DNA of 63,586 nucleotides, filler included, from Chrysochromulina tobinii (lineage: Eukaryota): assembly GCA_001275005.1 (NCBI GenBank). It is 6 parts of 6 records of this genome, joined end to end, with 100 filler letters (N's around TTAATTAATTAA, not from the genome) between each part and the next. Parts side by side here need not be neighbours in the genome. Positions count along the whole stretch, not along the records: positions 32,492 to 54,466 come from JWZX01001268.1; 5 more parts are not named here. The stretch is one strand, 5' to 3'. Position 1 is the first letter of the stretch; each line of letters opens with the position of its first letter. The translations under genes were made by a program, and so were the position numbers. A model generated the notes under the pieces. It searched no databases. It saw nothing but the letters and a program-made list of their open reading frames with translations, and was not told the DNA's origin. Shown in pieces: positions 3,787-51,989 of this stretch.

Positions 3787-4572
3787 ATGAGTGTCCAGAC
3801 AGCGAAGAAGTACTCGGCTTCGGGCTACATGGTCGGCGGAATTGACGCGGCTGCCAAACGTCTTGAGGGCGTCGACTGGCTCCGGACGGCCTTCGACGCG
3901 TTTGACGTCGACAAGAGCGGGTACCTCGACCCGCACGAGCTCCGCGCCGCGCTCACGATGCTCGGCGTCCGCAGCTCCGGCAAAACCGGAGCCACTGCGC
4001 TCGAAAAGATGGGGATCGACGACAAGGACGGCGACGGGGTCGTCTCGCTTGAGGATCTTGATGTGGACGGCGACCAGAAGGTGGATTTCGAGGAGTTCAA
4101 GGTATTTGCTGCCGTGCTGCCAAAGCGCGACCACGCCATCTACAGGAACGCGCTCGCGGCCAGGCCGATCACGTTGCCAAAGGATACTTCCAAGGCGTCG
4201 GCTGTCGAGGTTGAGCGCGCCAAGGCGCAGGCTGCATGCAACATGGCGCTCAACAATGCGCTAGTGCGGCTGCGCAAGGCGCTCCGGTTGAATACAGACT
4301 CGAAGCTCATGAAGGACACCGTGCTGCTCAAGAAGTTCCAGGAGCTCGACGAATCGGGGGACTCGCGCGTGAGCTCCAAAGAGCTGGTGTCGTTCCTCGC
4401 AAAGGAGCACGGCGCGAAGCTCGCCAAGACGGACGTGTTTGCACTGCTGCACTTTTGCGACACGAATCACGATGATCATATGTCCTTCGACGAGTTCAAG
4501 CACATGATGCAGACGGTTGCGCGCTCCGTGGATATGGAGACAGAAGCAGGCACAGACGCCATCTACTCGTGA
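3787..4572 (+). CDS. Calmodulin-like multi-EF-hand calcium-binding protein
   Basis: Loops DVDKSGYLDPHE, DKDGDGVVSLED, DVDGDQKVDFEE, DESGDSRVSSKE, DTNHDDHMSFDE. In-frame ATG at 3787. Confidence 0.9.
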   Translation: MSVQTAKKYSASGYMVGGIDAAAKRLEGVDWLRTAFDAFDVDKSGYLDPHELRAALTMLGVRSSGKTGATALEKMGIDDKDGDGVVSLEDLDVDGDQKVDFEEFKVFAAVLPKRDHAIYRNALAARPITLPKDTSKASAVEVERAKAQAACNMALNNALVRLRKALRLNTDSKLMKDTVLLKKFQELDESGDSRVSSKELVSFLAKEHGAKLAKTDVFALLHFCDTNHDDHMSFDEFKHMMQTVARSVDMETEAGTDAIYS

Positions 4573-5259: not shown

Positions 5260-7121
5260 TCAACTTCGGCGCCCCCTAGCAGCGCCTCGCGGGGCCCACA
5301 GAGGAGCCCCACCGAGAGAATATCCGCGACTTGCGGGACGGCCGCGGCTCAAGCGGGCTGGTTGCCAGCGCGCAGTGCGCTGGAAGCTCAGGTTGGCGAG
5401 CCCGGTGGCGCCGAGCCCCTGGTGCGCGCGCGGCCGAGCGGGTCAAGAGCAATGTGGTGAGCACTTGCAAGGCAGGTCATCAGTGGCAATCAACGTACCT
5501 GGTGCGCGGCCGAGCTCGCCACGATACGGTTGCCGCGCAGATCGATGGAAGCGAGCGAGCGGCTTGCTGAGATGCCTGCGAGGAGCTCGGCAGCGCCGTC
5601 CTCCTCGATCTCGTTGACGGCGAGCGAGAGGCTCACCAGCGCGTGGCACTCGGGCAGGCGCCAGGCGAGCTCCCACGCCCCGAGATCGCCAATCTCGTTG
5701 GAGCTCAGATCGAGCATGGCCACGCGGCTGCGCGCGAGCGCCGCCGCGAGGCGTCCGCAAGGTGCAGCCCCGACAGCGCAGCCGTCAAGGCTGAGGCTCG
5801 TGAGGCTCGGCGTGTCGGGCAGTGCGGCGGCGAGCGCAAGGGTGCCCTGAGGGCCGATGTGCGCGTTGGCCGACAGGCTGAGCGTCGTGATTCGACTGAG
5901 GGGTAGCGCGGCTGCCAGCAGCGTCACTCCATCTGCGGTCAGCCGATTGCCCGCCAGGTCGAGCACCTCGAGCGCACTGCCGCCGTCAATCCGCGCGCCG
6001 TTCAGTGCGAGGGCGAGGGCGGCGCACGCGCCGTCACCCACCCCCGTGAAGGGCACTGCGAGATACCGTAGGGTCGTGTTCGCAACGAGCGCGTGTGCAA
6101 GCCTGCTACAGCCCTCATCGAGGAGAGGATTGTGGTGAAGCTCGAGGCGTGCGAGCTTGGTGTTGGCGCACAGGGCGATCGCGAGCGAAGCGGCACCGGT
6201 GGCGTTGATGTACGAGCAGCCCAGCTGAAGGTCCTCAACGGACCGATTGATCGCAAGCGCCTGGCCGAAAGCGCTTGCCGCCTCCTCCCCCCGCAGGGCG
6301 CCGCACCCAGGCAGCACGAGCCGCCGCAGCGCGCACTCGGGCTTGGCGAGCAGCCGGATCACCTGCTTCACGCCGCGCACATCGAGGGAGCCGCGCGCGT
6401 CCAGCTCGACGAGGGAGCCCGTGCACCGCTGCAGCGTGAGCCCGAGAGCGCCAGGTGCATCGTCGACCTCACCGTCCGCCGCCGCGGTCGCGTCCTCGGC
6501 GCCCTCGCCGAAGACAGCAGCCGCCGCCACGGGCAGGGGTGCGGGAGGCGGTGAGATGGGCATCAACGTCTCGGGCGCGTGCGGCCCGTGGTGCAGCACC
6601 AGCCGGCGCGGCTGGATCGACTCCTCCTTTGCCAGCAGCCCAAGGTGCTCGTCGTCGAAGCCCTCGGCGCGGCAGTCGACCCGCAACAGGGCGAGCGATG
6701 GGCATAGGGCGACGAGGCGGCGAAGGTCGGCGACCGTCCACGAGGCAGAGCCGACTTGGAGGGCGTACAGGTCGTGCAAGTTCTGCGTCGAGCCGTAGCG
6801 CAGAGCCTTGAGGATGCCACCCTTGGTCAGCTGCTGGCAACCGCTGACGTTGAGTGATTTGAGCATGCTGCGCGGCACCCGCTGGAGCACAAAACGCAGC
6901 TTGTTGTCCGTGATCAGATCCTTGCACACGGTCAGATCGATGGCGCCAGCCTCGAAGAAGCCGTCGCTGCGGGCACGAAGCCCGTGGCTCACCTGGCAGA
7001 AGAGGAGCCATGCCGGCACGCCGCCGACGGCCAGGATTTCGTGCAGCACGTCGCTCGGAAGCAAGTCCAGCATCGAGGATGTCGAAAGGGTCACCGCCAG
7101 CGTCGTGGTCGGCGTCAGCAT
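5260..7121 (-). CDS. F-box plus RNI-like leucine-rich repeat protein (intron 5419-5498)
   Basis: N-terminal LDLLPSDVLHEIL...CQVSHGL (F-box-like); many LxxLxLxxNxIGxxG repeats. CAG|GTACGT donor and CACCAG acceptor give a short last exon ending TGA at 5260. Confidence 0.8.
5419..5498 (-). other. Degenerate repeat-cassette intron with exon duplicate at its 3' end
   Basis: Starts GTACGTTGATTGCCACTGATGACC. Ends GCTCGGCCGCGCGCGCACCAG, which copies the upstream exon end GCTCGGCCGCGCACCAG with a 4-bp CG expansion. Confidence 0.7.
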
Positions 7122-17591: not shown

Positions 17592-17691
17592 NNNNNNNNN
17601 NNNNNNNNNNNNNNNNNNNNNNNNNNNNNNNNNNNTTAATTAATTAANNNNNNNNNNNNNNNNNNNNNNNNNNNNNNNNNNNNNNNNNNNN
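17592..17691. other. Assembly linker (also at 32392-32491, 54467-54566, 57622-57721, 61025-61124)
   Basis: N44-TTAATTAATTAA-N44, a six-frame stop spacer. Confidence 0.98.
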
Positions 17692-31299: not shown

Positions 31300-31873
31300 T
31301 CACGCATCGGTGTCCGTGTTCACCTCAACGACAAGATCCTTGCCCATGATCGTCAGCACCTTCACTTTGAGCGACTCGCCCTCGTCAAAGCGTTTCACGA
31401 GCTCCTCGCCGACAGCGTCCCAACCCAAGCTGTCCTCGCCACGGCTCAGCATCGCATCCTCCTTTGGCTCGCCATCTGCGGTCAGAAGCGACAGCGTGCC
31501 GTCGCTCTTGTCCACATCCATGAGCGAGAAATGGGCATAGGCGGTGAGCGGTACATCGATGCCGTGAAAGCCGGCCGTGCAATTGATCGTGTCATCGTAC
31601 TTTTTCCCGGTGAACACCTGAAGGAGCACGCGTGTATCGATCAATGCAACAGCATAAGTTTATGAGGGCAGCGAGCCTCCATTGGTCGTCGTTGGGGGGG
31701 TTCGCTTCTCGCACATTAAGTCCAATGAGCTGCACTCGCTTATTGCCGTTGGCCGTCGCCTTTGGCAGCTGTGTCACCTCCAATAGTCTGCACGGATTAC
31801 CTTTGATCATCGCGTACCCATTCTTCTTGAGCTCCTCGGGCTGCACCTTGGTCGTCGCGCCTTCTTCGACCAT
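31300..31873 (-). CDS. eIF5A-like protein lacking the hypusine motif (intron 31618-31714)
   Basis: LKKNGYAMIKGNPCRLLEV...VQLIGLN|VFTGKKYDD...IDVP...GTLSLLTADGEPKED...FDEGESLKVKVLTIMG aligns by eye along eIF5A. Confidence 0.85.
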
Positions 31874-32391: not shown

Positions 32392-32491
32392 NNNNNNNNN
32401 NNNNNNNNNNNNNNNNNNNNNNNNNNNNNNNNNNNTTAATTAATTAANNNNNNNNNNNNNNNNNNNNNNNNNNNNNNNNNNNNNNNNNNNN

Positions 32492-32623
32492 AGAGGTCAT
32501 CAGAGGCAATCAGAGGTGCCATCCAACGAAACGTGCCCACCTGCATGCAATGAGGGAGGCAATCAGAGGTCATCAGAGGTCATCAGAGGTAATCAGAGGT
32601 GCCATCCAACGAAACGTGCCCAC
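32492..32623 (-). other. Repeat-cassette intron F (stacked, at least 2 units, runs into gap)
   Basis: GAG|GTGGGCACGTTTCGTTGGATGGCACC + 10-mer repeats + CTCCCTCATTGCATGCAG, then the same 26-bp exon copy and repeats again. Confidence 0.85.
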
Positions 32624-35600
32624 CTCGACGGCGCCCGCGGCGCGCCCCTCACCCGAGGTGGCGAGGCCGAAGTCGGTGATGCGCACCTGATGAGGGAGGC
32701 AATTAGAGGTCCTCAGAGGCAATCAGAGCTCATTAGCGAAGACGGTGATGCGCACCACGCCTCCGGAGTCGAGGAGCAGGTTGGAGCACTTGAGGTCGAG
32801 GTGGAGGACCCCCTTGCGGTGCAGGTACGCCATCCCAGTCGCGACACCCTCGGCCACTGACCAGAAGAAGTTGCGAGGTCATCAGAGGTCATCAGAGGTC
32901 ATCAGAGGTCATCAGAGGTCATCAGAGGTCATCAGAGGTCATCACACACCTGACCAGAAGAAGTTGCGAGGGGTTGGTCGGTTGAGTGCCTGCCGTACGT
33001 CGCCGCCGTCGCAGTACTCGAGCACCAGGCAGTATGTGGGAGGCGCCGCAGCCGCGCCGAGGCAGCGTACGATGTTCGGATGGCGCAGTCGGGTGAGCGC
33101 CGCCACCTGATGAGGGAGGCAATCAGATGCAATCATATGCAATCAGATGCAATCAGCGCAGTCGGGTGAGCGCCGCCACCTCTGCACGCCAGCCCGCCAT
33201 GCCCGCCACCCCCGAGCACGCCACCTTGACCGCCACCGCCACGCCCTCCCAAGCGGCCAGGTAGGTCGCGCCCATCGCGCCGCCTCCGATGCGCCGGTGG
33301 AGCACTAGATCATCAAGCGAGATACGCCAGTCCACAGGGCAGTCCTCCGTCAGGTCACCTGATGAGGGAGGCAATCAGTGATCATCAAGCGAGATACGCC
33401 AGTCCACAGGGCAGTCCTCCGTCAGGTCACCTGATGAGGGAGGCAATCAGTGATCATCAAGCGAGATACGCCAGTCCACAGGGCAGTCCTCCGTCAGGTC
33501 ACCGTGCCGCCTTCCCAGCATGCGCGATCGTGCCGCGAGCTGCTCGTCCGCAGCGGCGGCCGCCAGCACCGGCGAATGCGGCGCTGTCGTGGGCAAAGGC
33601 GCTGTCGTGGGCAAAGGCGCTGTCGTGGGCACCGGCGAATGCGGCGCATTGTGGATGGCGAGGGAAGATGAGGGCGCTGCCGTGGGCAAAGGCGCTGTCG
33701 TGGGCACCGGCGAATGCGGCGCATTGTGGATGGCGAGGGAAGATGAGGGCGCTGTCGTGGGCAAAGGCGCTGTCGTGGGCAAAGGCGCATTGTGGATGGC
33801 GAGGGAAGATGAGGGCGCTGTCGTGGGCAAAGGCGCTGTCGTGGGCAAAGGCGCATTGTGGATGGCGAGGGAAGAGGAGGCGTGCGCGTGCACGCTGCTG
33901 AAGGCGCTGATGGCGCTGCTGACGGCGGCAGCGCCGCCGGTGCCCACGGCAGCGCGGGTGCCCACGGCAGCGCTGCAGACGGCGCTGGGGCTGTTGCTGC
34001 TGCTGCCATCGACGCCGACGAGCAGCAGCAACGCACGCTTGAGAGCAGCCGCAGGCAGCGCACGAAGTTGCGCCGCGAGGGCATCGTTTGCATGCTGAGC
34101 CTCCGCCGGCGTGGGCGTGGTGGTGGCGGTGGTGGTCGTGGTGGCGCGCAGGACAGCGGCGACCGCGGCCACGGCCGCCTCGTTCTCATCGATGCTGTCG
34201 CGACCGGCGCCCATCACGGCGCTCGGGACGCCCGTGACGGCGCTCGGGACGGCTGCCTCACTCATCACGGAGAATGCGCCACTGCCGCTGCCGGAGGAGC
34301 CCGTAGTGGGCGCTGCAATGGGCGCTGCAATGGGCGCTGTCGTGGGCGCTGTCGTGGGCGCTGTAATGGGTGGTCCGATCTCGCGCCCGATCTCGCGCAC
34401 GTCGCCTCTCCCCCGCCGGCCAACGGTCGGGCTGAGCGGCCACCCGTCATCTCCCCCGTCATCTCCCCCACATCTCCCCCGCCGGCCAACGGTCGGGCTG
34501 AGCGGCCACCCGGCCGGTAGAGATGTGAGCGTCGTGATGGGCGTTGGCTCGCCCGGGGCGTCGTGATGGGCGCCGGCCGGCGCGGAGCCGGCGAAGGCGG
34601 AGGGCACGGCGGCGGTGAGCTCCGCGAGGACCGCCGCTTCGATGGCTTGGAGCTTGTCGACGTGCTCCGTGTACAGGTCCCAGCAGCGGCGCACGGTGAG
34701 GGCCGTGCGGATGGCGTGCAGGTCGAACTCGGTCATGAGGCGCAAATGAGCCTGAGCGAGCTCCGGGTTCTCAATCGTGAAGCCTTTCGCCATGAGCTGC
34801 AGCAGCCGCGGCGGCGCCGAGGTCCGGAGAGAGTCCTGATACGCCTTCTGGTTCGAGGCGCAGATGACGAGGTCCGCAAAGGCGCGCGGGGGCAGCGCCG
34901 GGACGGCGCGCTCCGGCAGCGCAATCACGCCGGTGAGGAAGCCGCGCATGTAGGCGGTGGACTCCTTGAGCCTTGCGAACTTGGAGATGGAGGAGGCCCA
35001 TAGGGAACCGCCGCTCTCGTGCCACACCTGCATGCAATGAGGGAGGCAATCAGAGGTCATCAGAGGTCATCAGAGGTCATCAGAGGTCATCAGAGGTCAT
35101 CAGAGGTCATCAGAGGTCATCAGAGGTCATCAGAGGTCATCATCACGCACCTGACGCTCGACGAGCTGCAGCACCTCCTCGCACAGCGCCGAGTACGCGC
35201 GCAACACCGCATAGAAGACCTGCGCGCGCCCTGCCACGCCAGGGCCCGAGGCCAGGAAGCTCCGATCTCCCATCGAGGTCGCGGCTGGAGATCGAGGTCG
35301 AGATCTCCGATCTCCCATCGAGGTCGCGGCTGGCGCAGCGGGTGGCATCGAGGGCGGCGAGGAGACGGGTGCGGGGAAATCTGACGAGGAGATCTGACGA
35401 GGTGCGGAGAGATCTGACGAGGAGATCTGACGAGGTGCGGGGAAATCTGATGAATTGCCAAATTCATCAGACCATCGGCGAACTACTTCGGCATCCACCG
35501 CCTCGCGCTGCAGCTGCAGCCGATTGAGTAGCTCGGGAGCTGGCCCAGCCGCATCGGTGCGCCTACGGAAATCAGCGAGCTTGGCACCGAAGGAGCCGAG

Positions 35601-37682
35601 CGTGCCCCCACTCGCCACCCATGCGCACGTCACCCCCCGCTCGCGCTGGAGCGCGTGGAGTAGCAGCTCCCAGCGCGTCTTGCCGCCGCTGTCCGAGCCA
35701 CCGGCCGTCCCGGAGCCGCTGGCCGTTGGGCTGCCGGCGGCGCTCAGGACGGCGCTCAAACTGGCCGTTGGGCTGCCTCGTTGCTGCAGGGTTGGAGCCC
35801 AGTACGGCGCCCCGACCAGAGCGCCGCCGCCAGCCGCTCCGCCTGCCGCGCCCGCGCCCAGTACGGCGCCATCGAGCCACGAGTGCTCGCCCAGTACGGC
35901 GCCGTCTTTCACCTCGGCGGGCAGGTAAGAGAGGGTGGCGGCAGGTAAATGCCTCTCTCCATCCGTGGGCAGGTAAGAGAGGGTGGCAGATGCCGAGGGC
36001 AGGTACGAGAGGATGGCAGATGCCGAGGCAGCGGCGGCCGTGTCGTTCACCGTGGCGCCAGCATGCAGCACATTCACATTCACAGGGAGCGTGGCCGTCA
36101 ACGGGGCGAATGCCGCAAAAGGGGGGGATGCCGCAAAAGGGGGGGATGCCGCAAAAGGGGGGGATGCCGCAAAAGGGGGGGATGCCGAAAAAGGGGGGGA
36201 TGCCGCAAAAAGGGGGGATGCCGCAAAAGGAGAGGATGCTGCAAAAGGGGCGCTGCTGCCGGCCGGCGCGCCCTCGTGCGCGCCGTTGCGCCCATTGGTG
36301 ACTAGGAGCGAAGGCAGTTGACGTTCGACGAGGCGTCGCCAATCGATCGGCGCGAAGAAAGGGTCCGCTCGAACAGCATTCCCGCCCTCTCGCCCTGTGC
36401 CGCCTAGACGGCCCTCGGGCCGTAGGATCAGCAGCTTGGAGATAAGGAGCGACGCGCTCGCCGACACGCTCGGCGGCATCGCGTCCACGAGGACCGCGGA
36501 AGACGACGACCCTAATATGGACGCCGTCCCTAATATGGAAGACGTCCCTAATATGGAGGACGACCCACCCGCGCCGCTCCCCGCCGCCGTGCCCCGCCAC
36601 CTATGGGCGCCGTACTGGGCGGGGAGCACTCGGCCCGTCGGCTGGAGATCGTGATCGAGATTGTGCTCGAGATCGCTCGCCAGCTGCTTCATCTCCTCCT
36701 CTAAAGCAGTCATGCGACTGCCGTCAGCGCCGCCGCCGTGAGCGCCGCCGCCGTGGACGCCGCCGCCGACGTCGCCCAGCCTGTCCTCGTCCAACGTGAA
36801 CATGCCTTCGACCTCGCCGCTGTTGCTGCAGCGCGGCGACCTCACGCCGCCGCTGCTGCTCATGCTACCGGCACAGCTGTGGCCGCCGCAGCTGTGGCCA
36901 ACGCTCGCGTCGTGTTGGGCAAACCGGTCAGCGCCCGTGCCAACGCTCGCGTCGTGTTGGGCAAACCGGTCAGCGCCCGTGCCAACGCTCGCGTCGTGTT
37001 GGGCAAACCGGTCAGCGCCCGTGCCCCACGGGAGCTCTCCTACAAGCATCTCATAGAGCAACACGCCGATGGCCCACCAGTCCACCGCGAAGGTGTATGA
37101 CGCGCCGCGCAGCACCTCCGGCGCCATGTACTCGGGCGTGCCGACCTGCGAGCGCGCTGAGATCGAGGTGGAGCCGCCGAAGCTCGACGAGCCTAGCAAG
37201 CGCTTGGCGGTGCCGAAGTCGGCGAGGACCGCGTGGCCGTCGAGCCCGAGCAGCACGTTCTCGGGCTTAAGGTCGCGGTAGATGATCCCGTGCTCGCGGT
37301 GCAGGTGCTCAATCGCGTGGGTCATCTGGGCGAGCACGAGCCGCGCCGCCTCGGTGGCGAGAGGCCCGTGGACCTGCAAGTGGCTGAAGAGGTCGCCGCC
37401 GCCCACAAAATCGAGCGCCTGATAGAAGTGCGAGTGGTCCTCGAAGGCGTAGTGAAGCCGCACAATGTATGGATGCACAATCTGCTTTAGCAGCACACTC
37501 TCCTGCTCTACCCGCTGGATTGCGCGGGCCGAGCCCAGTGCCGCTTTGCTCACCACTTTGAGCGCAAAGAGCTTGCCGTTCGACGAGTGGCGCACGAGCA
37601 CCACCTCCGCCGAGCCCCCCTGACCCAATACCCTCAACGCCTCAAAGTCGGAGATCACCAGCGACGATGGAGGGGCCTCCAT
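32492..37682 (-). CDS. Dual protein kinase: AGC-type kinase, NIT-like sensor domain, TKL kinase; 6 introns; 3' truncated by gap
   Basis: Kinase 1: LGQGGSAEV, FALK, YRDLKPEN, DFG, GTPEYMAPE, VDWWAIG. NIT-like LHALQRERG...RRRTD...LKES. Kinase 2 after splicing: IGGGAMGATY, VAVK, LRHPNIV, HLDLKCSN, DFG, GTFRWMAP. Confidence 0.88.
32687..32755 (-). other. Repeat-cassette intron E (19-bp downstream-exon duplicate, 1 mismatch, decayed repeats)
   Basis: GTGCGCATCACCGTCTTCG...CTCTGATTGCCTCTGAGGACCTCTAATTGCCTCCCTCATCAG|GTGCGCATCACCGACTTCG; removal restores SGGV-VRITDFG. Confidence 0.88.
32857..32949 (-). other. Repeat-cassette intron D (mirror type, 22-bp upstream-exon duplicate at 3' end)
   Basis: CCTCGCAACTTCTTCTGGTCAG|GTGTGTGATGAC(CTCTGATGAC)6-CTCGCAACTTCTTCTGGTCAG|TGGCC; removal restores FFWSVAEGVATGMAYLH. 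Confidence 0.9.
33107..33179 (-). other. Repeat-cassette intron C (24-bp downstream-exon duplicate)
   Basis: GAG|GTGGCGGCGCTCACCCGACTGCGC + TGATTGCATC-type repeats + CTCCCTCATCAG|same 24 bp; restores RAEVAALTRLRHPNIV. Confidence 0.9.
33359..33502 (-). other. Repeat-cassette intron B (two 72-bp units: 51-bp exon duplicate plus 21-bp acceptor cassette)
   Basis: Three exact 51-bp copies (33308-33358 exon, 33380-33430, 33452-33502) separated by ACTGATTGCCTCCCTCATCAG. Confidence 0.9.
35028..35150 (-). other. Repeat-cassette intron A (9 x 10-bp repeat, only CAGGTG shared at the ends)
   Basis: CAG|GTGCGTGATG(ATGACCTCTG)9-ATTGCCTCCCTCATTGCATGCAG|GTGTGG; joins the 859-aa and 537-aa ORFs in phase 0. 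Confidence 0.9.
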
Positions 37683-37915
37683 GTCCTGTATCCCACCAAC
37701 CGCGGGCACTCTCGACCTCCGTCAAGGGGTGTGTGCTCTCTCGTCCTCCGTCCATGTCAAGTCAAGTCCACGGCCAATCGATCATGTTTTCGGCCATTTT
37801 CAAAACAATTAGCTCGAGAACGGCTCGGCTCATGGATGGTCGTGGCGGCGGTGCTCGTTCAAATTCCGTCGGAATCACGAGTTGTTACGCTCACTTGCAA
37901 GAGTGTGCGAACACA

Positions 37916-49280: not shown

Positions 49281-51989
49281 ATGGCGCCGGCTGCGTCGAG
49301 CCTCTTGGCCACCATCCTTCGCGACGTGGACGCGAACCCGGCCAACGTGCAGGGCGCGCTGGCTGTGCTGCGCGGGCGCACGCTAATCGCCGTGGTTGAT
49401 ACGCAAACGCTCGACGCGTGGAGCTCTCGCTTGCAGGCATTGCTTCGAGGCCCGGTGCCCGAGGCTCGGGTCGCGGCGGCGGCGCTGCTCAGCGAGACGG
49501 TGCAGCAGTGCACGCAGTTCGAATTTGCACGGCACCGCGAGCAGTGGGCGGCAGCTCTGCTCCACTTGCTCCAGCCCATCAGCGAGGCCACGTCCGAGGC
49601 GGCCATCGCTGCGGCCACCTCCGTGCGGCTCGCTGCCGCTGAGGCGCTCGCGCACATGGTGACAGTGTCGGCAGGCTGGCCGGGCGAGCGGCGTGAGCTC
49701 TCGGGCGCGGTATCACGCCTTGCGACCGCGCTGGTCTCGATGCTTGGCGAGGCAACCACGCAGCACGGTGCGCTGCTCGTGCTCAGCCGGCTGTGCGCCG
49801 CTGTGCCTCACAGCCTTCGGGCCCATCGCGACAAACTGGGCGCGGCTCTGCCGTCAATTGCGCTCGAGGCGGGCGCCCCGGCCGCACGCGCCGCCGCGGC
49901 GCTCATGGGCGTACTGCCCAGCTGCCTGCCGGTCGCCGCGGTCGAGGAGGCATGGCTGTTGCACGTGCAGCGGCTGGTCGGGACGATGCACCGGGCACTC
50001 GCTCTGCTGCTAGGCGCCGTCGTGAGCGCGCCACCGGTACGGTACGAGCTGCCTGCTTACGCGCTGCCCGCCGAGGCGCAGGCGAGCGCCGTCGTGGCGC
50101 CGTCCTTCGGAGTGCCCACGACGGCGCCGTCGGTGGCCGCTCAACACAGCGCTCGCACGAGCGCAGCGGCGCAGCGGCGGCGCTCGGCTTTAGTTCGGTG
50201 CGTCTCTCGTTGTGCTCTTGCGTTGCATTGTGGCTTGTGCCCGCCCTCGACGCCGGCGGACGCCCTGCCGATGCCCGTGCCGCTCGAGCTGCTGGTCAGC
50301 ACCGCCGCCTACATCCTCGACGCTGACGGCTTGGTCCCGGTTCGCGTACCGGTCACCGAGGCGGCCCTGCCGCTCGCGGAGGCGCTGCTCGTCCTGCCCG
50401 AGGTGCACCTTGCAGCGCTCCAGCTGCTGCACTCGACGGTGGCGTGTGCGCAGCGTCACGCCCTCGGCCACGTGTCGACCATCGCTCCGGTGAGTGCCGT
50501 TAATTGCTCTGATTGCCTCTGATTGCCTCTGATTGCCTCTGATTGCCTCTGATTGCCTCTGATTGCCACTCATTACGGCCACGTATCGACCATCGCGCAG
50601 CTCCTTCGGCGTTCGTGGCAGCGCACCTCGCCCTCCGGCCCGCCCCAGCTGCGCTGCGCCGAGCTACGCGCGGCCACATACGCTCTGTCGGCGGTGCTCT
50701 TGAAAGCCTTTGGGCCATGTGTGGTGGGCGCCATGGGGGAAGCGCTCGTGAGCCACGCTCTCCTCGACTTGACTGGTCAGCTGCCTTCCCGAGCCAGCGC
50801 TGCCGCTGCACACGACGGCGGCGCTGGAGCGCGCAAGCGACAGCGTCAGAATGAGGACGGCAGCGTCGGCGGCAGCGTCGGCGGCAGCGTCGGCGGCAGC
50901 GGCGTTGCCGCCAGTGGCGCTGCCGCCACCGGCGGCGGGCGGCCGGCTCCGGTGGGCGTGCAGTGTGCGGCCCTGAGCGCCGTGCACGCCCTCCTGCTAG
51001 TGGGCTCCGAGCTGCTCAACCTCGCTCTCCTCGGCCGGCTACAGCGGGCTCTCCTCTCGGCGTGCGTCGACGCGGCGCAGTGCGCGCCCGGGACGGCGCT
51101 GCACGCGCTGCTGCTCTCGGCGCTGGGCGCTGCGGTGGGCACCGGGCGCGCCGTGCATGGCGACGTACTGCCGCGCGCCATTGCGGTGCTGCAGGGCGCG
51201 GGCGTGCGCGCGCCCGTCGGCGTGGCGCGGGCAGCTGCGTTCAGCGCATTGCATGCATCGGATCCCCTGCTGCATCCGGGCGGGGTTGCATGCTGGAGCC
51301 TACCGGCAGAGGAAGAACGTGCCGCCGACGCCGCGGCTCGGCCGGCGGTTACGGCGGTTACTGGCGCCCACCACGACGCCGCGGCTCGGCCCGGAGCCAC
51401 CACGGCGCCTGCCTCCACGCTGGCCGGTGCCCCTGCCTCCACGCTGGCTGGGGCCCCTGCCTCCACGCTGGCTGGGGCCCCTGCCTCCACGCTGGCTGGG
51501 GCCCCTGCCTCCACGCTGGATCTCTCCTCCATTGCCCCTGCCTCCATTGCCGTTGGAGCTCGCCCCACCCTCCTGCCTGTGGGATCGGGCGCCGTCGTGG
51601 GCGCGACGGTCGAGGCGTCGAGATGGGCGCCCGCGACGACGCAGGGGCCGCCATCCGCGATGCCGTCCGCGCCGCCGCCGCCCGCACCGCCGCCCGCACG
51701 GGCTTCTGAGGCGCCAGCTCCACCCGCTCCACCCGCTCCACCCGCTCGGGCCGTCGCAATCTCGATGGCAATCTCGAAGGCCGCGCCGCCGGCCGCCCTT
51801 TCGCCGGGCTTGCGGACTGGAGCTCACGACGGCGCTCCGCTGCTGCACCTTCCAGGCGCAGCGTACGCTCACGACGGCGCGCCGATGGATGACGACGACG
51901 ACTCCGAGGTCGAGCTTGTCATGGCTCCTCCCGACGAGGCCGATCGGAGCGCCGTCGTGAGCGCCGGGCAGATCGGAGCGCCGTCGTGA
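49281..51989 (+). CDS. RIX1/PELP1-like ribosome biogenesis protein (intron 50490-50600)
   Basis: Helical N-terminus AWSSRLQALL...LLSETVQQC...WAAALLHLL, PxP-LHP motifs, Pro-rich region, acidic end DDDDDSEVELVMAPPD. Confidence 0.7.
50490..50600 (+). other. Repeat-cassette intron, mirror type, (CTCTGATTGC)6 plus 25-bp upstream-exon duplicate
   Basis: CGGCCACGTGTCGACCATCGCTCCG|GTGAGT...(CTCTGATTGC)6...CGGCCACGTATCGACCATCGCGCAG|CTC. Confidence 0.88.

What the first reader, a model, noticed from the sequence alone, without database searches (positions are those of the whole stretch)
32492..35150. Intron-making system: 10-bp repeat cassette plus duplicated exon sequence builds new spliceosomal introns
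Seen: six introns in one kinase gene share a core of tandem 10-mers (minus strand CTCTGATGAC, CTCTGATTGC, ATCTGATTGC; 1-9+ copies), five ending in a fixed acceptor tail CTCCCTCATCAG or CTCCCTCATTGCATGCAG. In B, C, E and F the 5' part is a 19-51 bp copy of the next exon, which happens to begin with GT and so supplies the donor. Removing each intron restores conserved kinase motifs exactly. There are no terminal inverted repeats, duplication length varies, and several junctions share microhomology with the repeat (e.g. ...GCACC-TCTGAT, ...GATGATC-ACTGAT). Each 10-mer carries a CTGAY branch-point-like motif. Established: Introner elements and tandem duplication are both known routes of intron gain. 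Inference: this hybrid fits repeat synthesis primed at a staggered break (telomerase-like or RT-templated addition, or templated end-joining) rather than cut-and-paste transposition. I cannot tell whether this family has already been described.
Basis: partly seen in the sequence, partly recalled or inferred. Interest (0 to 1): 0.92.

Follow-up and report, generated by a model that had tools for sequence, protein, structure and literature searches.

The report
Introns copied from neighbouring introns
A gene of a freshwater alga has gained six short introns that its relatives mostly lack, each a shared repeat filler between two copies of the gene's own sequence, and they likely arise when DNA repair copies part of an existing, often nearby, intron into a break, which would be a self-spreading route to new introns that needs no transposon.

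Summary
Real. The window is Chrysochromulina tobinii (99%). All six inserts exist. RNA contigs skip A, C, D, E and F; B is not shown spliced and C is often retained. Sister proteins (169/174 identical) read straight through sites B-F, and a 67% relative lacks all six, so these are recent gains. In metagenome loci 68 of 148 isolated arrays have a flanking duplication (null about 2%), median about 23 bp with no fixed length; the filler carries the acceptor, the donor or neither. Telomerase-like synthesis is not needed: a non-repetitive filler leaves the same scar, and site F has three alleles (empty, array, other filler). New here: introns A and F share their last 50 bases, and an intron's closest match lies in its own locus 12.7 of 44 times against 1.4 expected. 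Best reading (inferred): break repair copies part of an existing intron, the duplication supplies the other splice site, selection filters. No enzyme or template type is shown. An introner survey lists 0 families for this species. This scan noted the footprint before elsewhere in this genome (e1-2577349).

The parts
32492..37682 (-). Host gene: AGC-type kinase domain, NIT-like region, second (Tyr/Ser-Thr-type) kinase domain; cut by the N gap at 32491
   Evidence: Stop-free 1539-aa frame after removing inserts; Pfam PF00069, PF08376, PF07714; P0001 = C. tobinii KOO34293.1, whose model stops at insert C
35028..35150 (-). Intron A, phase 0: donor head, pure GAC array, long acceptor tail; 6-bp duplication; oldest of the six
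   Evidence: Skipped in RNA contigs of 4 of 4 runs; position shared with sister ORFs P0002-4 (short tail there), absent in P0005; same in L056
33431..33502 (-). Insert B, copy 1, phase 1: 51-bp copy of next exon plus one unit and short tail
   Evidence: Sequence; in L056; empty in P0002-4; no RNA joint shown
33359..33430 (-). Insert B, copy 2, identical tandem copy
   Evidence: DNA pieces at about 3.5 times single-copy depth; one unspliced RNA piece
33107..33179 (-). Intron C, phase 0: 24-bp copy of next exon, four TGC-type units, short tail; weakly spliced
   Evidence: Skipped in X12 record 3; retained in X13 and X15 contigs that skip D and E; empty in P0002-5
32857..32949 (-). Intron D, phase 1: mirror type, donor and array carried, acceptor from 22-bp copy of upstream exon
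   Evidence: Skipped in 5 of 5 RNA runs; empty in P0002-5; head resembles intron A
32687..32755 (-). Intron E, phase 0: 19-bp copy of next exon (one mismatch), variant units, short tail
   Evidence: Skipped in 3 of 5 RNA runs, 9-nt loose end fits in a fourth; spanned by a DNA contig; empty in P0002-5
32541..32623 (-). Intron F, phase 0: 26-bp copy of next exon, array, long tail; last 50 bases identical to intron A
   Evidence: X12 record 2 continues into kinase sequence without filler; suffix identity; empty in P0002/3/5, different filler in P0004/P0037
32492..32540 (-). Start of a further tandem F copy, cut by the N gap
   Evidence: raised DNA depth at 32513-32564
50490..50600 (+). Same family in a RIX1-domain gene: donor-carrying insert, 21-bp duplication, four extra bases in front of the donor; predicted intron
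   Evidence: sister ORFs P0038/39 are empty and read IAQ where this splice would give IAP; no RNA test
5419..5498 (-). Same family in an LRR gene: donor-carrying hybrid of 10-mer units and the second filler; predicted intron
   Evidence: no RNA test

Best explanation
These are recently gained spliceosomal introns, each a family filler between two copies of the host sequence, and they likely arise by error-prone repair synthesis that copies a piece of an existing intron, often one in the same gene, into a staggered break. Shown: the anatomy, the splicing of five of six, the empty sites in relatives, the either-end truncation of fillers, the sense-strand bias, the clustering and the excess likeness to introns of the same locus. 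Inferred steps: (1) two offset nicks or a stalled fork 10-55 bp apart; (2) a 3' end anneals by a few bases to a sibling intron and copies part of it (acceptor side, donor side or middle); (3) it switches back upstream, so the target is duplicated; (4) the duplicate supplies the missing GT or AG; (5) inserts that are not spliced are purged from coding DNA; (6) each new intron becomes a template, and slippage between the direct repeats or units later makes chains and changes unit number. A DNA template (polymerase-theta-like end joining or fork template switching) is my first choice over the gene's own pre-mRNA, about 60:40; neither is tested.
For: Empty sites: P0002/3 read through B-F, P0004/37 through B-E, P0005 through all six; RIX1 site empty in P0038/39; a 78-bp filled/empty pair at 98% identity (L033/L037). 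Duplications: 68 of 148 isolated arrays against 1.8% and 2.2% in two nulls; pooled n=84, median 22.5, quartiles 18-29, no fixed length, no mod-3 bias. Mirror classes: 21 acceptor-carried, 10 donor-carried, 8 both from the duplicate, 3 GC, 19 none of 61 clean events; in-register GT-AG on the filler strand 39, on the other strand 9 (3 only there). 21 of 25 tail-ending events have GT exactly in register, background 4.4%. Junction overlap mean 1.8 against 0.71; 3 or more bases in 12 of 40 against 6%. Second, non-repetitive filler: 23 of 39 with duplication, 11 spliceable in sense against 1 antisense, truncated at either end. Local source: A and F are each other's best match of 161, share 50 bases; best match in own locus 12.7 of 44, expected 1.4, maximum 7.3 in 500 permutations, six loci. 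Clustering 5.6, 3.4, 2.2, 0.85 per 10 kb with distance, 49 same strand to 3 opposite. Four bases in front of a carried donor that the empty allele lacks fit a template that spans an exon-intron junction, not an excised intron.
Against: B, C and E have no close match in their own gene (best ranks 37, 15 and 33 of 161), so most sources are not local or are not in my sample. Unweighted k-mer likeness within loci was not raised (0.158 against 0.188, p=0.94); the rare-word version was (0.054 against 0.030) but did not fall with distance. Local likeness could be later gene conversion: intron A has different tails in window and sister, and F has the same duplication with different fillers. 80 of 148 arrays have no detectable duplication and 19 of 61 have no in-register sites. 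Microhomology is modest; 13 of 40 junctions have none. Random repair does not by itself explain why fillers come almost only from these families. C is often retained and B has no RNA joint. No enzyme was identified; no genome was held.
Confidence: 0.58

Rival explanations
1. Non-autonomous retroelement (SINE- or Penelope-like) inserted by target-primed reverse transcription: read antisense, the filler ends in 3' tandem repeats, is 5'-truncated and sits in a variable target duplication; only copies that splice survive.
For: Variable-length duplications are the mark of LINEs and PLEs (PMC9977147 passages). Arrays and the second filler join in some copies (L014, window 5419-5498), as if parts of one master. 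Class I has a fixed end and a variable end.
Against: Truncation at both ends and donor-carrying copies with many different heads; only 1 of 39 second-type fillers has an array within 45 nt; antisense and non-coding copies are rare (14 and 13 of 134 against 37% and 23% of random window sites); likeness to the own locus. No RT domain among 79 window ORFs scanned, which says nothing about the rest of the genome.
Confidence: 0.17
2. Two steps: a plain tandem duplication (with AG|GT or a cryptic site) makes a weak intron first, and the filler is captured later by gene conversion from neighbouring introns, then grows by slippage.
For: Genome is duplication-prone: 8 perfect plain tandem duplications of 15-60 bp in the window, 0 in 5 shuffles; a plain 30-bp duplication differs between strains. 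Site F has one duplication with two fillers; intron A has two tails. 8 of 61 events take both sites from the duplicate.
Against: In 31 of 61 events one splice site is in the filler, so the bare duplicate would be an unspliced insertion, two thirds of them frame-breaking (no mod-3 bias). Alleles seen at B-F and RIX1 are empty or filled, none bare (few alleles seen).
Confidence: 0.14
3. Telomerase-like or other iterative RNA-templated synthesis adds 10-mers at a break and runs on into the fixed tail (first reader's favoured version; like telomeric repeats and TERC fragments at mammalian breaks).
For: Short arrays of variable number with a fixed tail and microhomology; TERC-flanked interstitial telomeric repeats have a similar anatomy (PMC2246262 section 7).
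Against: Array-free filler gives the same scar; many unit variants and locus-specific variants; haptophyte telomere repeat is TTAGGG; flank duplication is rare for ITS (6 of 130 rodent, 4 of 25 primate loci) but is the rule here; longest array in the sample 201 bp.
Confidence: 0.05
4. Classical introner: a MITE-like DNA transposon with short TIRs (CTGAT..ATCAG) carrying one splice site and taking the other from its target duplication.
For: Same splice-site logic as Symbiodinium, Polarella and Aureococcus introners; a 5-7-bp inverted match between unit and tail; several class I arrays begin at (C)TGAT.
Against: Duplications of 11-55 bp with no mode, against fixed 4 or 8 bp; no fixed ends; second filler lacks the inverted match; donor-carrying copies lack the tail.
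Confidence: 0.04
5. Assembly artefact, or old introns invaded by a microsatellite.
For: Arrays break short-read assemblies; the gene ends in a gap at an F copy; copy number of B and F chains is uncertain.
Against: Independent contig identical; DNA contigs span junctions and RNA contigs skip the inserts exactly; relatives have no intron at these sites.
Confidence: 0.02

Closest known systems
Intron gain at staggered double-strand breaks in Daphnia pulex (PMC4202315, passages; PMC4540971 passage)
   Same: Recent, polymorphic and parallel gains; a copy of adjacent exon at the far end of the new intron
   Different: Daphnia repeats are 4-12 bp (33 cases) and the filler's origin is not clear; here duplications are 11-55 bp and fillers belong to recurring families traceable to sibling introns
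Introners that carry one splice site and co-opt the other from the target duplication: Symbiodinium, Polarella classes 4/5 and 6/8/10, Aureococcus, marine Chrysochromulina MAG family (bioRxiv 2020.10.14.339549 part 1 of 4; bioRxiv 2022.06.06.494994 passages)
   Same: Families of similar new introns; carried plus co-opted splice sites; gene-biased; occur in haptophytes
   Different: Fixed 4- or 8-bp duplications and defined ends there; variable long duplications, either-end truncation and local sources here. C. tobinii GCA_001275005.1 is listed with 0 families (PMC12130899 supplement); both surveys removed low-complexity families by hand. Whether a marine Chrysochromulina MAG family is related could not be checked (consensus sequences not seen)
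Same-gene intron duplication / intron transposition in Oikopleura and fungi; R-loop reverse-splicing model for Micromonas (PMC3609843, PMC3443670, PMC4540971 passages)
   Same: New introns resemble other introns, sometimes in the same gene; sense-strand only; clustered
   Different: Those are whole introns inserted cleanly (82 same-gene cases in 24 fungi); here partial introns come with a target duplication and sometimes flanking bases, which reverse splicing does not produce
Intron gain by tandem genomic duplication of AGGT (PMC3443670 passages)
   Same: The duplicate supplies splice sites; class III events match it
   Different: No filler in the classical case; here a filler supplies branch-point-like motifs and usually one site
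Templated insertions of polymerase-theta-mediated end joining and fork template switching (recalled; titles and abstracts only)
   Same: Short inserts copied from nearby DNA, microhomology at junctions, tandem duplications
   Different: Known as one-off scars; not known to me as a self-feeding source of hundreds or more related introns
Non-LTR/Penelope elements and Replitron-1 with variable target duplications (PMC9977147, PMC10288648 passages)
   Same: Variable duplication length; Replitron-1 also carries bases from beside the parental copy
   Different: Those have a fixed end and an encoded enzyme; none found here

Membership tests
U2 spliceosomal intron | GT-AG ends and exact removal from RNA | tested here: met
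   A, C, D, E, F skipped in RNA contigs; B not shown; C also retained
U2 spliceosomal intron | Branch point used at the CTGAY motif | not testable with these tools
   Motif present about 16 nt before the AG; needs lariat reads
Recently gained intron | Absent from orthologues in relatives | tested here: met
   P0002-5, P0037, from protein sequences of ORFs on contigs of 3.4-14.2 kb; DNA not seen
Introner (broad definition) | Many similar copies in unrelated genes | tested here: met
Introner (broad definition) | Similarity reaches near both splice boundaries with consistent ends | tested here: not met
   One end is host duplicate of variable length; filler ends vary
MITE / DDE-transposon introner | Fixed-length target duplication | tested here: not met
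   11-55 bp, quartiles 18-29, n=84
MITE / DDE-transposon introner | Terminal inverted repeats | tested here: not met
   Only a 5-7-bp unit/tail match in acceptor-type arrays; absent from donor-type and second filler (by inspection)
Non-LTR / PLE retroelement | Variable target duplication | tested here: met
Non-LTR / PLE retroelement | Fixed 3' end with 5' truncation only | tested here: not met
   Both ends vary; mirror classes
Non-LTR / PLE retroelement | Partner element encoding RT | not testable with these tools
   No genome held; none among 79 window ORFs
Interstitial telomeric insertion | Repeat equals the organism's telomere repeat | tested here: inconclusive
   Haptophytes studied use TTAGGG; C. 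tobinii ends not seen
Reverse-spliced intron | Whole intron inserted cleanly, no duplication | tested here: not met
   Partial fillers, duplications, extra bases before a carried donor
Templated end-joining scar | Insert copied from nearby sequence | tested here: met
   For a subset: 12.7 of 44 against 1.4; not for B, C, E; later conversion not excluded
Templated end-joining scar | Junction microhomology | tested here: inconclusive
   Raised about 2.5-fold but absent at 13 of 40 junctions
Templated end-joining scar | Dependence on polymerase theta or alt-end-joining | not testable with these tools
   Needs mutants

The most novel reading that the evidence does not exclude
A transposon-free intron chain reaction: breaks in transcribed genes are repaired on the gene's own unspliced RNA, so pieces of upstream introns are written into downstream exons, each new intron seeds more, and this is the main ongoing source of introns in freshwater Chrysochromulina.
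Probability: 0.25. Interest if true: 0.93.

Novelty: new variant of a known kind. Interest (0 to 1): 0.79.

Why it matters
Where new introns get their sequence is a long-open question: break-repair gains (Daphnia) have no known source, and mass gains are credited to transposons. Here the source is visible (existing introns, often in the same gene), the scar is large and dated by empty alleles, and five introns entered under 1 kb of one gene while its protein changed by about 3%. The species grows in culture and has relatives with empty, filled and differently filled alleles, so rate, template and enzyme can be tested. Surveys that need similarity at both intron ends or discard repeat-rich families score this genome as zero, so the route may be undercounted elsewhere. 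The inserts also break gene models (KOO34293.1 stops at C) and assemblies.

Tried and rejected
No whole genome was held, so no genome-wide count, source mapping or RT/POLQ search. Viral contigs: 0 matches to the tail pattern, 1 to the array, no relative of P0004. Rfam: nothing at gathering score in the window. Folding of the six introns gave no common structure (-9 to -18 kcal/mol, no shuffle control). A filler-blind search for duplication-flanked introns (584 events) was too noisy to count; used only to notice other 10-mer fillers. The first duplication table was confounded by chains and replaced by isolated arrays (148 of 302 unique of 403 blocks). The first local-source count (23.3 of 97) included chains (L008, L043, L044, L045) and was replaced by the strict count. 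Direction of copying (upstream to downstream) could not be read from the few pairs. Apparent exon carry-over after second-type acceptors turned out to be gapped duplications in most cases and is not used. Summed contig depth over the array was about 3,400 times single copy, only a hint of thousands of copies. The E. huxleyi genome paper, which I recall reporting 10-11-bp repeats enriched in introns, is not held; that comparison is recalled only. The bioRxiv supplement of the 2022 survey was not seen; its PMC table was cut when stored, and files 13-14 of the 2025 survey were not searched, so an entry for these fillers under a marine MAG cannot be excluded.
Full report
1. What is there. The minus strand carries a gene for two kinase domains around a NIT-like region. 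Six inserts interrupt it: A 35150-35028, B 33502-33431 with an identical second copy 33430-33359, C 33179-33107, D 32949-32857, E 32755-32687, F 32623-32541 with a further copy running into the gap. Removing them gives 1539 codons without a stop. The exon after A is 99% identical to Chrysochromulina tobinii KOO34293.1. A, B, C, E and F carry an acceptor tail; in B, C, E and F the donor is the GT at the start of a 51, 24, 19 and 26-bp copy of the next exon; A has a 6-bp duplication; D is the mirror image. Two more members lie in the window, both donor-carrying: 50490-50600 (+) and 5498-5419 (-).

2. They are real and mostly spliced. Contig L056 repeats 33381-37728 at 4345 of 4347. RNA contigs from five runs: A skipped in 4 of 4 laid over it; D in 5 of 5; E in 3 of 5; C skipped in X12, retained in X13 and X15 contigs that skip D and E (X11 enters it by only 23 nt); F removed in X12, whose record leaves the window at 32598 into letters that I read by eye as EVVRREAYS, as in the sister protein; B shows only an unspliced piece (both tables were cut, so missing joints prove nothing). 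DNA contigs of two runs hold the inserts, with B and F pieces at 2-4 times single-copy depth.

3. They are recent gains. ORFs P0002 and P0003 (169 of 174 residues identical from B to the gap) begin inside an intron-A tail and read through B, C, D, E and F; P0004 and P0037 read through B-E but at F show the same duplicated peptide on both sides of a different filler, whose translation matches the second filler family of the loci; P0005 (67%, one 1653-aa ORF) lacks all six. This rests on proteins; their DNA was not seen. If P0002/3 came from transcripts retaining only A, F-empty would rest on P0005, but P0004/37, unspliced at both A and F, still show B-E empty. The RIX1 site is empty in P0038/39, and L033/L037 (98%) differ by a 78-bp insert with a 28-29-bp duplication.

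4. The family. Of 403 blocks, 302 were unique and interior and 148 isolated; 68 of these have a flanking direct repeat, against about 2% in two nulls. After dropping 7 whose duplicate itself holds filler: 21 acceptor-carried, 10 donor-carried, 8 both sites from the duplicate, 3 GC, 19 none; 39 in register on the filler strand, 9 on the other. A codon model trained on 14 window ORFs (checked in-sample only, 86 of 86) puts flanks sense for 107 of 134 arrays, antisense 14, non-coding-like 13; random window sites give 40, 37 and 23%. A second, non-repetitive filler (branch-point-like GCTCAC, pyrimidine tract, CAG) has the same scar: 23 of 39 with duplication, cut at either end. Pooled duplication median 22.5 bp, quartiles 18-29. 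Junction overlap is 1.8 against 0.71 bases. Unit numbers differ between strains at one site, so slippage suffices for array length.

5. Where the filler comes from. Members cluster: 5.6, 3.4, 2.2 and 0.85 neighbours per 10 kb at rising distance from 30 focal arrays, 49 on the same strand and 3 on the other. A and F share their last 50 bases and are each other's best match of 161 acceptor ends; F's target start also resembles the exon after A; D is A's best donor-side match (tied, of 54) and A is D's third. With chains collapsed (65 events, culture contigs only, 44 with a neighbour) the best match is in the own locus 12.7 times, expected 1.4, maximum 7.3 in 500 permutations; six loci contribute, at 0.4-3.7 kb. 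Against: B, C and E have no local match; plain k-mer likeness was not raised; conversion after insertion would look the same, and A's tail and F's filler differ between strains. At the RIX1 site four bases before the carried donor are absent from the empty allele (IAQ there, IAP predicted here), which fits a template spanning an exon-intron junction.

6. Mechanism. Best reading (0.58): repair synthesis at a staggered break or stalled fork copies part of a sibling intron and returns upstream, duplicating the target; the duplicate gives the missing splice site; selection keeps spliceable copies; each becomes a new template. GT sits exactly in register in 21 of 25 tail-ending events (background 4.4%), by microhomology with the source's own next exon (GT follows the short tail in 75 of 101 cases), by selection, or both. 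DNA or pre-mRNA template is open. Rivals: retroelement (0.17), duplication then conversion (0.14), telomerase-like synthesis (0.05), MITE (0.04), artefact (0.02).

7. Comparison with print. It works like Daphnia break-repair gain (4-12-bp repeats, unknown source; PMC4202315 and PMC4540971 passages) and uses the splice-site logic of introners, but fails the fixed-duplication, TIR and both-ends tests. Same-gene intron duplicates are known but whole and rare (PMC3609843 passages). The 2025 survey lists C. tobinii with 0 introner families (supplement row; 15 haptophyte rows, all E. huxleyi or Pavlovales); the 2022 survey scanned it and lists families only for marine MAGs in the rows I saw (file cut). 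The genome paper mentions introns once (PMC4580454 passages). Searches (Chrysochromulina or haptophyte with intron gain, introner, repeat, templated insertion, RNA-templated repair, neighbouring introns) showed no description of this family in the listings; the library lacks most subscription papers, and the E. huxleyi genome paper is recalled only. Also seen: PMC3443670, PMC10288648, PMC9977147, PMC8469720, PMC3622300, PMC13518057 (passages), PMC2246262 (outline, section 7). Polymerase-theta biology is recalled plus the listing.

8. Verdict. Observation confirmed; interpretation partly supported. A new variant of break-associated intron gain with a visible, partly local source and dated empty alleles. 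Interest 0.79.

Noticed in passing
window 32492-37682 (-): Unusual architecture: AGC kinase, NIT-like nitrate/nitrite-sensing region and a second kinase in one protein; kept in a 67% relative (P0005), while P0006 has NIT plus one kinase.
   Followed up: partly
L024 ~1039, L033 ~180, L044 ~1590 and ~3374, L066, L092: Other 10-bp repeat fillers (GATCTC-type, GAGATCGCAC, CCCCTAATTA) also sit between duplications, some joined to the second filler; the route is not tied to one unit.
   Followed up: partly
window 34375-34481, 35264-35450: GAGATC/GATCTC-type repeats between short duplications inside the open frame of the kinase gene, absent from the sister proteins' text; possibly unspliced in-frame inserts of the same process.
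   Followed up: no
window 33580-33880, 36110-36250, 36897-37025: Many coding tandem duplications of 18-75 bp in this gene that the sister ORFs lack; the gene or strain is a duplication hot spot.
   Followed up: partly
L001, L007, L012, L022, L092; window B and F: Chains of two to five duplicate-plus-filler units with different unit counts per copy.
   Followed up: partly
window 35028-35150 against P0002-4: The same intron A ends in the long tail here and the short tail in sister strains; the tails differ by six bases.
   Followed up: partly
window gaps at 17592, 32392, 54467, 57622, 61025: Five identical spacer blocks (44 N, 12 letters, 44 N): the window joins separate contigs, so genes across them need not be neighbours.
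   Followed up: no
window ~31620-31720 (-): An ordinary-looking intron without filler in the eIF5A gene; not all introns here belong to the family.
   Followed up: no
L143 (IMG/VR): One viral-collection contig carries the array; probably a host fragment.
   Followed up: no
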